Positions 6,146 to 57,003 are shown, counted from the stretch's first letter. The stretch: DNA of 64,000 nucleotides from Octopus vulgaris (GCA_951406725.2 OX597821.1:71362001-71426000); one strand, 5' to 3'. The notes: a model not told the origin generated them from the sequence alone. Translations and numbers: made by a program.

Positions 6146-6444
6146 CTGTTGTGTCTGGGGAGAGTCATTCTCTTTTAGGGCCTTATTAATTAACACACTC
6201 ACCAGTAAAATTTCTACTTATTTCTTATTTTTATTTTCTAAAATTTTAAATAATGGACAGAGTCAAGACTATTGAAAAGGTTGCAAGACGCAACGAAAAT
6301 TTAAAAAAATAAAAATAAGAAATAAGTGAAATTTTTACCGGTGAGTGTAAGGCCCTAAAAGAGAATGACTCTACCCAGACACAACAGAATATGCTTCAAC
6401 ACACGAACTCATATAAAGAATCTTGCAAACCAAATCCAAAAACG
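6146..6444. mobile_element. Fold-back PLE-like element with 15-bp flanking duplication; degraded U3/A8 hammerhead at 6269-6302
   Basis: Long inverted arms; aaatgtacgtatatt at 6131-6145 and 6445-6459; second copy of the family at 51886-52095. Confidence 0.7.
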
Positions 6445-7302
6445 AAATGTACGTATATTATATCTTATAAGAAAATATAAATATATATAAAAATACGTAA
6501 TTTTTCAATACAAAATCGAACAAATTTCAACAATATATTTTAAAACAAAATCGAATATTTTATCAAATATAATCTGTTAACTAAATCTTGAAACATAGGA
6601 CTTGGTGTTTATAATAAATTTATCGCGTTAAAACGTGGTGTAAATAAAACTACAATAAATAGATAGAAATATTTATTATATCTATGAAAATACATTTTAG
6701 CTTATAGAAGAAAAAATTACAAACTATAGTATATCATTACTGGAAAATTAAAATACAAGTAATTAATACAAAATTTTTAAAACAATATATATATATATAT
6801 ATATATATATATATATATATGTAATACACACTAAGTGAAGCTAAAATACTATAATTTAAACTATACCCATTAAATTATTTATTTATTTAATAAACATCTA
6901 AGTTAAATCTTATTCTAATTATGTAATATATACTAAAAAACTTCATTCTAACTTATATACATAATACTACTACAAACTATAACTAAAAGAATTAAAAATA
7001 GAAAATGGTTCAAATACATGCACACAAATTAGTTAAACGTATTATATAATAAATTCTTTTTTTCTATATGGTATGATTAGGTATATCATTTTTGAATTGC
7101 TACATGGGGGTTCTTCTCTAATTTATATATATATATATATATATATATATATATATATATATATATATATATATATATATACACACACAAAATATTCTAT
7201 AATTATATACATGATTATAATCAGGGGTCAGCTAAGTGCCTCGCCACGTATGTATGTATGTATATATATATCTCTCTGTGTATCTTTTTTTCTCTCTGTG
7301 TA

Positions 7303-7340
7303 TCTTTCTGTTGAAGAGCGTAGGCTCGAAACGTTAAAGA
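7303..7340 (+). ncRNA. Minimal hammerhead-like motif, A6U core variant
   Basis: tcttt-CTGTTGA-a-gagc[gtag]gctc-GAAAC-GTT-aaaga. Confidence 0.55.
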
Positions 7341-7568
7341 CTTGTTTTATTTATATTTCCTGAGCGCCATACTAATACAATTGTTCGTTTGTTTTCCACC
7401 TGCCTTCGTCTTTTGTCTATTTTCATAAAGCTTCCCGTTATATATATATATATATATATATATATATATATAACGGGAAGCTTTATGAAAATAAACAAAA
7501 GACGAAGGCAGGTGGAGTACAAAAAAACAATTGTATTAGTATGGCGCTCAGAATATAAATAAAACAAG

Positions 7569-7606
7569 TCTTTTACGTTTCGAGCCTACACTCTTCAACA
7601 GAAAGA
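7569..7606 (-). ncRNA. Minimal hammerhead-like motif, A6U core variant
   Basis: tcttt-CTGTTGA-a-gagt[gtag]gctc-GAAAC-GTA-aaaga. Confidence 0.55.
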
Positions 7607-7756
7607 TACACAGAAAAGAAACACGGAGAGAAACAAGGAGAGAAGAAAAATGCGTGCAGAAGCTAGCGATTCAACATGGCGATATATATATATATATATA
7701 TATATATATATATATATATATATATATATATATATATATATATATATATATATATA

Positions 7757-8817
7757 CAGGGTGTCCCAAAAAAATGTATACACACTTTAGCAGCTGATAA
7801 CTCAATTGATATTTTTTCTTTCCAGATGAAACCTATAGGATTTGATGATGGCAGTCAGATTAAGCTTTGAACAAAGAAAATTCATTCTAAAAGGATACTG
7901 GAAGTGTGAAAATGCAGTTGAAGTGCAAAAACAGTTGGGGAGGGAGTTTCAAACAGATCCACCAATGCAACTCCCCATCACTTGAATTAGAGATAAGTTT
8001 GAAGCTGATGGAACTGTTCAGAATGTCCAAGATAAGCATTCCAGAAGACCCCGAACATCAACAACCCCAACAAAGCAAGGATTACTGGAAATGAATCACC
8101 AAAGTCCAAGAAAATCTGTACGGCAAAGCGAGTCATGGGGTAGGTATTCCCAAATCATCTGTCTAATGCATTTTGAAGCATTGTCAATGGAAAAGTTACA
8201 TTCCAAGATTAGTCCATGCTATTAATGATGATGATCCAGACGAAAGAGTGCAGCATTGCGAGTGGTACTTAGAACGATGTGTAAAAGCTGCACACTTTCC
8301 AACAAAGATTGTGTGGAGTGATGAAGCCACATTCAAATTAAATGGTTCAATTAACTGCCACAATTGCACCTACTAGGGTCCTGAGAATCTGCATGTTATG
8401 GTGAAACACCATGTTAATTTGATATTTGTGTGGTGTGGTGTGGTTTATCATGTTAATTTGATATTTGTGTGGTGTGGTGTGGTTTATCATCAAGAGGATT
8501 AATTGGACCATTCTTTTTTTATGTTACTGTGACTGGTCCCGTTTACTTGAACTTGTTGCAACAGTCTGTTATGCCAAGCATTAGAGAAGACTTTGAAGAT
8601 GAGGAGTTTTATTTTCAGCAAGATGGGGCACCCCCACACTACCATTGCTATGTTAGATCCTTCCTTGCTGAGACCGGACATCAGTTTGAAAACAGGCATT
8701 GACAAAACAATAAAATAATGTCTGTAGATTCTATTAAATTTTGAAAATGAAGTGTCTTTTAATAAACAACTACTTTACAATTGTTTAAAGTGTGCATACA
8801 TTTTTTTGGACACCCTG
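7757..8817 (+). mobile_element. Tc1/mariner-superfamily DNA transposon (Tc3-like transposase), internally deleted pseudogene
   Basis: TIRs CAGGGTGTCC(C)AAAAAAATGTATRCACACTTTA with TA flanks; [22 protein letters not shown] and QQDGAPPH motifs with stops and frameshifts. Confidence 0.92.
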
Positions 8818-54780: not shown

Positions 54781-54840
54781 TATATATGTGAAGATGTATA
54801 CATATGTGTGTATATATATATATATATATATATATATATA

Positions 54841-55243
54841 TAAGTAGCTTGTCTACCAACCACATGGTTCCGGGTTCAGTCCCACTGCGTGGCACCTTGG
54901 GCAAGTGTCTTCTACTATAGTCTCGGGCCGACCAAAGCCTTGTGAGTGGATTTGGTAGACGGAAACTGAAAGAAGCCCGTCGTATATATGTATATATATA
55001 TATATATGCGTGTGTGTGTGTGTGTGTTTGTGTGTCTGTGTTTGTCCCCTAGCATTGCTTGACAACCGATGCTGGTGTGTTTATGTCCCCGTTACTTAGC
55101 GGTTCGGCAAAAGAGACCGATAGAATAAGTACTGGGCTTACAAAAGAATAAGTCTCGGGGTCGAGTTGCTCGATTAAAGGCGGTGCTCCAGCATGGCCGC
55201 AGTCAAATGACTGAAACAAGTAAAAGAGTAAAAGAGTAAAGAG
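54841..55243 (+). mobile_element. SINE family B, near full length
   Basis: B-box-like gggttcagtccc, CORE-like ggcaccttgggcaagt, internal microsatellite, (aaagagt)n tail. Confidence 0.92.
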
Positions 55244-55602
55244 TATATATATATATATATATATATTTACACAGATGTTTATACATATCAATATCTACAC
55301 ATACGACTCTTACGTGTATGTATATGCACTCATGTGCACCCATATATACGTGCATCTGCATGTATTATCGCCCCTGTATACGCATGTATATATACCTTGC
55401 ATACATACGTACATTCACACGTACGCATACACTCACTCATACATATCCGCAGACACTCACTCGTACATATACACACACACATGGATAGATGCAGACACAC
55501 ACGAATATAATTAGATGGTTGAGATATTCAAGAATGAGCGAGGAATTAGATTGTAATGAGGAGTTAGAATGTAGATTTACAAGATTATTGGGATATATAT
55601 AC

Positions 55603-56155
55603 ATGGTGGCTGCCCCCTCGTTATCGAGTATGGCCATTGCACGAAGCTTAATCAATGTTGTTATCGTGCAATGCCTGTGCAAGAAGATTTTTTTTTTAAA
55701 GTGAGGAAAGGCTGTGCACTGAGTCAATCCCACTCGCTAAGCAACAGCAGCCATAATCCGAAAAGAAGAACAAGTCAACATCATCGGCAACCACTGAGCC
55801 GCAGGTTTTATGTCGGAGTTATCCCAGTTACTTGAGTTATCTTCTCCTAGAAGGATGCCCTAACAAAGGCTAGGATTCCTTCACTCCCAATGGTTTAACC
55901 GCGCGATCGGGTATTCAGTCCGATTATTTCTATGTCCCCGCGCATGGTACATCCTTAAGACATTTATTGGGTGGCCGTTGACTCTCAAGAGTTCCTCCGC
56001 CCTTTGACGGGTTTTGTTTTTCATCCCGCAGGGTGTCCAATAAACACCCTCCTCACCAAGCAAGCTTGGTGGGGTTGCCGGTTTAGTCGCCGACGACCCG
56101 ACCATGCAACAGGTTGTACTGGGTTACATGAAACCAGTAGCACTCGAAGGTGACT
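55603..56155 (-). mobile_element. Non-autonomous element carrying the RTE 3' tail
   Basis: 55607-55651 is the near reverse complement of 50251-50296; the remainder is non-coding. Confidence 0.7.
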
Positions 56156-56606
56156 TGACATATATATACATACGTGCATACATACATACAAACATACATA
56201 CACACGCACACACATACATACACACACACAAACACACACACAAACACACACACACACACACACACACACACACACACACACACACACACACACACACACA
56301 CACATATATATATATTAGAAGGTTTGGAGATGATGTACAGGTATTTTATATTAGAAGAAATGAGGTACTCAGAAATTCGGATGGTTTTATATTTACAGAC
56401 ATTTATTTGTATATTACATGTTTTTATACATCATATATCATATATATATATACATATATACATATATACATATATATATATATATAGATATATAGATAGA
56501 TATGTATATGTATATATATATAAGTGTATGTATGTATATATACATGTATATATACATATGTGCGTGTGCGTTTGTATATATATATATATATATATATATA
56601 TATATG

Positions 56607-57003
56607 TATTAATAGTTATCGCCATACTAATATGGTAGTCTATAAATATAAGACTAAAACTGTCGCTGATTAGCTCCAAGAGGCCATCGGCTCTAGCTAG
56701 CTATTTGACGCACGAACCTGCGTCCATTACAAACCTTCGAACAGGGGAGTTCAGCCGCTTCACCTTGCTAGTCAGACATCTGCAGACATGTTTCAGGGTT
56801 GTTGCCCTTTATCAATGCAGCGTAGTCATTGATACTGACCGTCGCTACTGACCGTCTGTTCGAAGATTTTATTTACCTAGTTACAGTGGAATACATCCAT
56901 GTCAAATAGCTAGCTAGAGGCGATGGCTTCTTGGAGCTAATCAGCGACAGCTTTAGTCTTATATTTATAGACTACCATATTAGTATGGCGATAACTATTA
57001 ATA
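56607..57003. mobile_element. Fold-back element with ~100-bp arms enclosing a hammerhead
   Basis: Arms 56607-56709 and 56901-57003; (TA)n on both sides. Confidence 0.78.
56780..56820 (-). ncRNA. Intact type I hammerhead with U3/A8 core and GUC triplet
   Basis: ctgca-TTGATAA-aggg[caacaa]ccct-GAAAC-at-GTC-tgcag. Confidence 0.82.

What the first reader, a model, noticed from the sequence alone, without database searches (positions are those of the whole stretch)
6269..56820. Compensatory C3U/G8A catalytic-core swap in three unrelated families
Seen: instead of CUGANGA the core reads UUGAAAA or UUGAGAA (14486, 14779, 53171), UUGAUAA (56780) and UUGAAAA (6269, 52001), with flanking stems largely intact. 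Known: positions 3 and 8 form a Watson-Crick pair in the active hammerhead, and U3-A8 rescues the single mutants. Inference: the double change recurring in elements with unrelated flanks implies selection for catalysis. Standard CUGANGA searches would miss these copies.
Basis: partly seen in the sequence, partly recalled or inferred. Interest (0 to 1): 0.75.

Follow-up and report, generated by a model that had tools for sequence, protein, structure and literature searches.

The report
Hammerhead core pair swapped four ways
The swapped U3-A8 core is real and is the standard form in three repeat families of jumping genes, a variant already published; the same genome also carries families with the other two possible pairings (G3-C8 and A3-U8), which suggests these predicted self-cutting RNAs are under selection to keep cutting, although cutting itself is untested.

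Summary
All six motifs exist. They are type I hammerheads with a palindromic helix III. Four have intact helices; 14779 and 6269 are decayed. U3-A8 is the family consensus, not a per-copy event: 90, 92 and 98 of the first 100 listed matches of families A (945), B (2,649) and C (193). A and B lie downstream of Penelope-like (PLE) RT/GIY-YIG ORFs; C is a tandem 359-nt retrozyme-like unit. Natural U3-A8 is published, also in PLE hammerheads (Perreault 2011; Cervera and de la Pena 2014), so the swap as reported is known. The addition: this genome uses all four Watson-Crick 3-8 pairs. Family G is G3-C8 (5,997 matches). Family F (64) holds 48 A3-U8 and 10 G3-C8 copies but only 3 mixed A/G-U/C copies. 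Against strict selection: a small family-B branch spread with a U3-G8 wobble, and no pile-up of copy ends at the cut site was seen. This scan noted G3-C8 before on other DNA of this genome; I found A3-U8 in no paper searched. Cleavage is untested.

The parts
14484..14529 (-). Family A type I hammerhead, U3-A8 core (U3 at 14521), ACCGGU palindromic helix III; intact
   Evidence: element 14434-14672 is 94% identical to the 3' end of PLE locus L148
14777..14818 (-). Family A hammerhead, U3-A8 core (U3 at 14812); decayed helices I and II
14873..14990 (+). Inverted fragment of the family A PLE ORF at the 5' side of the 14812 copy
   Evidence: blastn 86% to L148; tblastn 84% at 14899-14991
53168..53209 (+). 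Family A hammerhead, U3-A8 core UUGAGAA (U3 at 53174), inside element 53031-53310
6269..6305 (+). Family B hammerhead, U3-A8 core (U3 at 6272), extra G after A9; 3' arm of helix I lost; inverted tail copy at 6141-6247
52001..52037 (-). Family B hammerhead, U3-A8 core (U3 at 52034), extra G after A9, AAUU palindrome; element about 51881-52108 with inverted tail piece
56774..56827 (-). Family C canonical-like type I hammerhead, U3-A8 core UUGAUAA (U3 at 56815), in a retrozyme-like unit 56607-56899 with an inverted partial unit 56900-57095
   Evidence: 359-nt tandem spacing in L006
20049..20083 (-). Family E minimal hammerhead, standard C3-G8 core (control)
52188..52222 (-). Family E minimal hammerhead, standard C3-G8 core (control), abutting the family B copy
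26508..26580 (+). Type I hammerhead with C3-G8 core, long helix II and 8-nt palindrome (family D, one copy seen)

Best explanation
The six motifs are copies of type I hammerhead motifs with a U3-A8 core that is fixed in two Penelope-like retroelement families and one retrozyme-like tandem family, and the 3-8 pair is likely kept by selection on the transposing master RNAs because they are predicted to self-cleave as dimers. Shown: the anatomy, the family consensus states, the link of A and B to PLE ORFs, and that families in this genome use C3-G8, U3-A8, G3-C8 or A3-U8. Known from the literature: the 3-8 pair forms in the active fold, and palindromic helix III lets two copies pair. Inferred: two ribozymes in a tandem transcript pair through the palindrome, cut after H17 and release a unit-length or circular RNA that the PLE protein copies; masters with a broken pair leave few offspring, and a new Watson-Crick pair is reached through a short-lived wobble stage. 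The genomic copies themselves are inferred to be dead and to decay neutrally.
For: Family consensus: A 90, B 92, C 98 of the first 100 listed are U3-A8; C' 99 of 100; H 99 of 100, with position 7 taking all four letters. Control family E: 92 C3-G8, 6 C3-A8, 2 U3-G8, 0 U3-A8 of 100, so decay does not make U3-A8. Family G 95 of 100 G3-C8, a double transversion. Family F, all 64: 48 A3-U8, 10 G3-C8, 2 G3-U8, 1 A3-C8, 2 A3-G8, 1 U3-C8 (Fisher p 5e-9); no other of 344 columns separates the two versions fully. Fixed-grid sample of 1.27 Mb: 26 of 28 hits Watson-Crick, 2.3 hits per shuffle; 15 of 17 clusters Watson-Crick, permutation p 8e-6, mean 5.8. Helices I and II also change in compensated fashion between kin families B and G. 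PLE ORFs end about 600-640 nt upstream of A and B hammerheads and 1 kb upstream of G; GIY-YIG above Pfam cut-off for B and G. In a PLE hammerhead single C3G or G8C kills cleavage and the double partly restores it (PMC11167929).
Against: No cleavage data. An older branch of B carries U3.G8: of 16 fetched copies with its tail marks, 12 are U3-G8, 2 C3-G8, 2 U3-A8 by type, plus one C3-A8 (17 in all), so a non-Watson-Crick master spread, at about 1% of the family. Copy starts do not pile up at the predicted cut in any of six families (0 of 77 alignments start exactly there, 2 within 4 nt). Folding gave the palindrome-linked dimer for C (56815) and for 53174, but other dimers for 14521 and 52034. 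With positions 3 and 8 masked, F's two versions do not form clades (7 changes, shuffled mean 8.5). The permutation test treats families as independent, which kin are not. PAc hammerhead cleavage was not needed for insertion in vitro; Naiad PLEs thrive without canonical hammerheads; U3-A8 did not rescue in one type III ribozyme.
Confidence: 0.72

Rival explanations
1. U3-A8 masters arose by two common transitions (C to U, G to A) and hitchhiked; the ribozyme is dispensable, and the pair is kept by chance or only weakly.
For: U3.G8 branch of family B spread; cleavage not needed for PAc insertion in vitro; no pile-up of copy starts at the cut site; the genome window is 64% A+T.
Against: G3-C8 needs two transversions yet marks 5,997 matches; family F switches both positions together; 15 of 17 clusters Watson-Crick; position 7 varies while 3 and 8 stay fixed in family H.
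Confidence: 0.1
2. The active-like fold with its 3-8 pair is selected as a structure that the PLE protein binds or that aids reverse transcription, with little or no cutting.
For: Minimal PLE hammerheads cleave poorly in vitro (PMC4209133); PAc cleaves only with protein and uncleaved RNA is the main template; many short copies of G, E and B start 40-60 nt upstream of the cut, so cDNA ran through it.
Against: Religated or circular RNA also gives read-through; G12, A13, A14, U16.1 and a non-G H17 are kept in the family motifs listed, though my scan required them.
Confidence: 0.13
3. U3-A8 arose once in a deep ancestor of the three families, so the recurrence is common descent, not repeated compensation.
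For: A and B are both PLEs; retrozymes are proposed PLE derivatives (bioRxiv 10.64898/2026.07.22.740005, abstract). No rooted tree across families was built.
Against: A's nearest ORF kin is F (about 50% identity; A3-U8/G3-C8) and B's is G (49%; G3-C8), while the two pairs are only about 26% alike; so changes of the pair happened at least three times whatever the root.
Confidence: 0.05

Closest known systems
Minimal type I hammerheads in PLE pseudo-LTRs, including the U3-A8 variant of Schistosoma mansoni Cercyon elements (Cervera and de la Pena 2014, PMC4209133; read: main text parts 1-2 of 4, supplement file 2 part 2 and passages of part 1)
   Same: Type I order, palindromic helix III, extra base after A9 in B, G and E, place downstream of an RT/GIY-YIG ORF, U3-A8 cores with the same letters (UUGAAAA, UUGAUAA). 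Their Fig. S3 also lists one U3.G8 example (Saccoglossus).
   Different: No cephalopod, and no G3-C8 or A3-U8 row among the rows I saw; no within-family switch or wobble stage described in the parts read.
Natural core variants of hammerheads (Perreault et al. 2011, PMC3088659; read: passages)
   Same: Reports C3-G8 covarying to U3-A8 in several natural examples.
   Different: The passages seen name only U3-A8 at this pair, and not in retroelement families.
Animal non-LTR retrozymes (Cervera and de la Pena 2020, PMC7229834; read: passages)
   Same: Family C: tandem units of 359 nt, 38% G+C, canonical-size type I hammerhead with palindromic helix III.
   Different: U3-A8 core (term absent from that main text); circular RNA not shown here.
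PAc Poseidon PLE hammerhead of Anolis (Frangieh-type in vitro study, PMC11167929; read: passages)
   Same: PLE-borne minimal hammerhead; engineered C3G/G8C partly restores cleavage.
   Different: There the swap is engineered; here G3-C8 and A3-U8 are natural and high-copy.

Membership tests
Type I hammerhead ribozyme | Core U4 G5 A6 A9, G12 A13 A14, A15.1-U16.1, H17 in type I order | tested here: met
   all six motifs
Type I hammerhead ribozyme | Watson-Crick pair between positions 3 and 8 | tested here: met
   U3-A8 in all six; family consensus
Type I hammerhead ribozyme | Helices I and II pair | tested here: met
   Met in 14521, 53174, 52034, 56815; not met in decayed 14812 and 6272
Type I hammerhead ribozyme | Self-cleavage after H17 | not testable with these tools
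   No raw reads were offered; copy-start test negative
Type I hammerhead ribozyme | Match to an Rfam hammerhead model | tested here: not met
   0 matches at gathering score; the C3-G8 copies were missed too, so this reflects the minimal helix III
Minimal PLE hammerhead (dimer-acting) | Palindromic, too-short helix III able to pair between two copies | tested here: inconclusive
   Palindromes present (ACCGGU, AAUU, ACAUGU); predicted dimer used them in 2 of 4 copies folded
Penelope-like element (families A, B; also F, G) | RT plus C-terminal GIY-YIG ORF upstream of the repeat | tested here: met
   GIY-YIG above cut-off for B and G; RVT_1 weak for A (E 7e-4), F and G; A's endonuclease had no Pfam hit and only a weak match to G's (E 0.007)
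Penelope-like element (families A, B; also F, G) | 5'-truncated copies with inverted 5' piece, beside microsatellites | tested here: met
Penelope-like element (families A, B; also F, G) | Full pLTR-ORF-pLTR copy and clade placement by RT tree | not tested
   Only truncated copies were fetched; no reference PLE proteins at hand
Non-LTR retrozyme (family C) | Tandem 150-450-nt non-coding units, one hammerhead each | tested here: met
   359-nt spacing in L006, 358 in L073
Non-LTR retrozyme (family C) | Expressed as monomeric linear and circular RNA | not testable with these tools
   Only contigs, none on record as RNA

The most novel reading that the evidence does not exclude
Penelope-like elements of one animal genome have explored all four Watson-Crick pairs at the hammerhead's active-site 3-8 position, including A3-U8 and G3-C8 within one family and a C-G to U.G to U-A path caught as subfamilies; all four cut, which shows that ribozyme catalysis is selected during PLE transposition and that CUGANGA searches miss most hammerheads in such genomes.
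Probability: 0.5. Interest if true: 0.65.

Novelty: new variant of a known kind. Interest (0 to 1): 0.48.

Why it matters
Whether PLE hammerheads do anything in vivo is open: they cleave poorly in vitro, were not needed for insertion in one assay, and might merely ride along. The 3-8 pair belongs to the active fold, so natural covariation there is evidence for selection on that fold, and the families give a ready-made panel for a test. In the grid sample 16 of 26 Watson-Crick hits were not C3-G8, so standard descriptors undercount. The U3-A8 swap alone is not news.

Tried and rejected
Rfam: nothing. PDB sequence search with the family G ORF: 3 chance hits. No evidence on expression either way. 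Copy-start pile-up at the cut: none. The PLE fragment beside family C in L150 is on the other strand and abuts it, so I rejected it as C's own ORF. L071 (two C copies 3.9 kb apart) held no PLE ORF. A C3-G8 sister subfamily in A or B: not found; 2 of 945 and 6 of 2,649, near what independent changes give. L078 and family C units share no blast match. Micro-inversion as the cause of F's switch: rejected, since inverting positions 3-8 would alter U4-G5-A6 (sequence logic). Papers not held: Lunse 2017, Przybilski and Hammann 2007, Martick and Scott 2006, Nelson and Uhlenbeck 2008; these, and supplement file 1 of PMC4209133, could mention natural G3-C8 or A3-U8.

Full report
Setting. The window lies in a 2.8-Gb animal genome of 227 contigs, rich in microsatellites; I take it to be octopus-like by inference. 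Counts per family below come from exact-pattern searches with positions 3, 7 and 8 left free; totals are whole-genome, letter tallies were made by eye from the first 100 listed matches unless all were listed. Patterns demand intact stems, so totals are lower bounds. The reversed-pattern control gave 0 in every search.

Observation. All six cores read as reported. Each has type I order: helix I arm, N3 U4 G5 A6 N7 N8 A9, helix II, GAA, a palindrome in place of helix III, H17, helix I arm. A scan with 3 and 8 free found 7 such motifs in the window against 0.37 in shuffles. Four of the six are intact; 14812 and 6272 are decayed. They fall into families A (14521, 14812, 53174), B (6272, 52034) and C (56815), which share only (TA)n.

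What the families are. A: a copy 94% identical to 14434-14672 lies 595 nt downstream of an ORF end with RT-like and endonuclease-like sequence (L148), and an inverted piece of that ORF flanks the 14812 copy. B: 6 of 50 fetched loci hold ORF pieces 35-52% identical to another PLE ORF, with GIY-YIG above the Pfam cut-off. C: tandem units of about 359 nt, 38% G+C, no ORF of its own found, which fits non-LTR retrozymes (PMC7229834, passages). Inverted 5' pieces and microsatellite neighbours match described PLE insertions (PMC8557442, passages).

A: 945 matches; 90 U3-A8, 3 U3-G8, 2 C3-A8, 3 A3-A8, 2 G3-A8; G8 in 26 of 945, 2 of them C3. B: 2,649; 92 U3-A8, 5 C3-A8, 1 U3-G8, 1 U3-C8, 1 C3-G8; G8 in 50 of 2,649, 6 of them C3. 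C: 193; 98 U3-A8, 1 U3-G8, 1 C3-A8; its CAAAUA-loop sister 280; 99 U3-A8. So U3-A8 sits in the masters, and copies leave it by single independent changes, as dead insertions would. This neither proves nor refutes selection. The control family E (C3-G8; 3,443) gave 6 C3-A8, 2 U3-G8 and no U3-A8: decay of a standard core does not produce the swap.

The informative test, between masters. I scanned 1.27 Mb taken on a fixed grid. Of 28 hits 26 had a Watson-Crick 3-8 pair (10 C-G, 7 of them in one tandem array; 9 U-A; 7 G-C), and 2 were mismatched; shuffles gave 2.3 hits per replicate. Over all 1.92 Mb held, 15 of 17 clusters were Watson-Crick, singletons included, none dropped; permutation mean 5.8, p 8e-6, an overstatement since kin are not independent. 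Family G is G3-C8 in 95 of 100 (5,997 matches) and lies 1 kb behind a PLE ORF. Family H is U3-A8 in 99 of 100 (582) while position 7 takes all four letters. Family F, a PLE akin to A, is the sharpest case: of all 64 matches 48 are A3-U8, 10 G3-C8, 2 G3-U8, 1 A3-C8, 2 A3-G8, 1 U3-C8 (p 5e-9). In 19 A3-U8 and 10 G3-C8 copies aligned, no other of 344 columns separates the groups fully; the next best has p 4e-4. A pairs with F and B with G by ORF identity of about 50%, the two pairs only about 26%, so the pair changed several times and landed on Watson-Crick states.

Results against. A branch of B with its own tail marks carries U3.G8: among fetched copies classed to it by tail words, 12 U3-G8, 2 C3-G8, 2 U3-A8, 1 C3-A8; 14 of 19 U3-A8 copies with the same loop belonged to the main branch. 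The tree shows a 19-row clade (99/92) with 14 U3-G8, but that tree included positions 3 and 8, and my sample was enriched for G8. This may be the wobble step from C-G to U-A (inference), and it shows that a non-Watson-Crick master could spread at low number. With 3 and 8 masked, F's two versions were not resolved as clades. Copy starts did not gather at the predicted cut in 77 alignments over six families. Predicted dimers used the palindrome in 2 of 4 copies. No expression or cleavage evidence was obtained.

Literature. Natural U3-A8 was reported by Perreault 2011 (passages) and, in PLE minimal hammerheads with about 1,300 hits in S. mansoni, by Cervera and de la Pena 2014, who built a descriptor for it. 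The 3-8 pair marks the tertiary-stabilised fold (PMC3884650, passages). In a lizard PLE hammerhead single C3G or G8C abolished cleavage and the double partly restored it, yet cleavage was not needed for insertion in vitro (PMC11167929, passages). In a type III hammerhead only the G-C swap rescued (PMC9901934, passages). That any Watson-Crick pair can work, depending on context, is my recollection of Przybilski and Hammann 2007, not read here. Searches for natural G3-C8 or A3-U8 found none; the library lacks most subscription papers and Lunse 2017. Earlier notes of this scan report G3-C8 families in this genome; I had found family G before looking. None of the notes shown names A3-U8.

Verdict. 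The finding as written is real and known. Its value lies in what the test turned up: all four Watson-Crick pairs, a two-site switch inside one family, and a possible wobble intermediate. Selection on the active fold in master elements is the likeliest cause (0.72); cutting remains to be shown. New variant of a known kind; interest 0.48.

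Noticed in passing
L297-L328, L267:6730 (family F; e.g. G000:C7:5006725): PLE family whose hammerhead is A3-U8 in 48 and G3-C8 in 10 of 64 matches; A3-U8 was found in no paper searched.
   Followed up: yes
L087:8285(-), L152:1284-3732 (family G): G3-C8 hammerhead behind a 487-codon open PLE RT/GIY-YIG frame with a near-identical inverted copy; 5,997 pattern matches.
   Followed up: yes
L091-L118 (family B branch with AAGAA loop): Older subfamily with a U3.G8 wobble core, about 20 exact matches; possible intermediate between C3-G8 and U3-A8.
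   Followed up: partly
L078:3083-4520: Tandem array of 353-359-nt units (48% G+C), each with a C3-G8 canonical-like hammerhead; a second retrozyme-like family without blast similarity to C.
   Followed up: partly
L156:2073, L158:8996; L014:2419, L270:6700: Two further U3-A8 families; the first (H) has 582 matches with position 7 free.
   Followed up: partly
window 7300-7600: Inverted pair of family E-like pieces around (TA)n forming a long perfect hairpin; the core reads CUGUUGA (A6 lost).
   Followed up: no
window 26508-26580: C3-G8 hammerhead with unusually long helix II region and an 8-nt palindrome; family not counted.
   Followed up: no
window 21129-21362: Fragment similar (36%) to another PLE-like ORF (L150).
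   Followed up: no
window 1648-2011 and 61711-62180: Head-to-tail copies (periods 184 and 170) of a SINE-like repeat; the SINE label is recalled, not tested.
   Followed up: no
window 40537-41292 (-): Frame whose start resembles the C-terminus of a restriction-like-endonuclease non-LTR retrotransposon (recalled resemblance, not tested).
   Followed up: no
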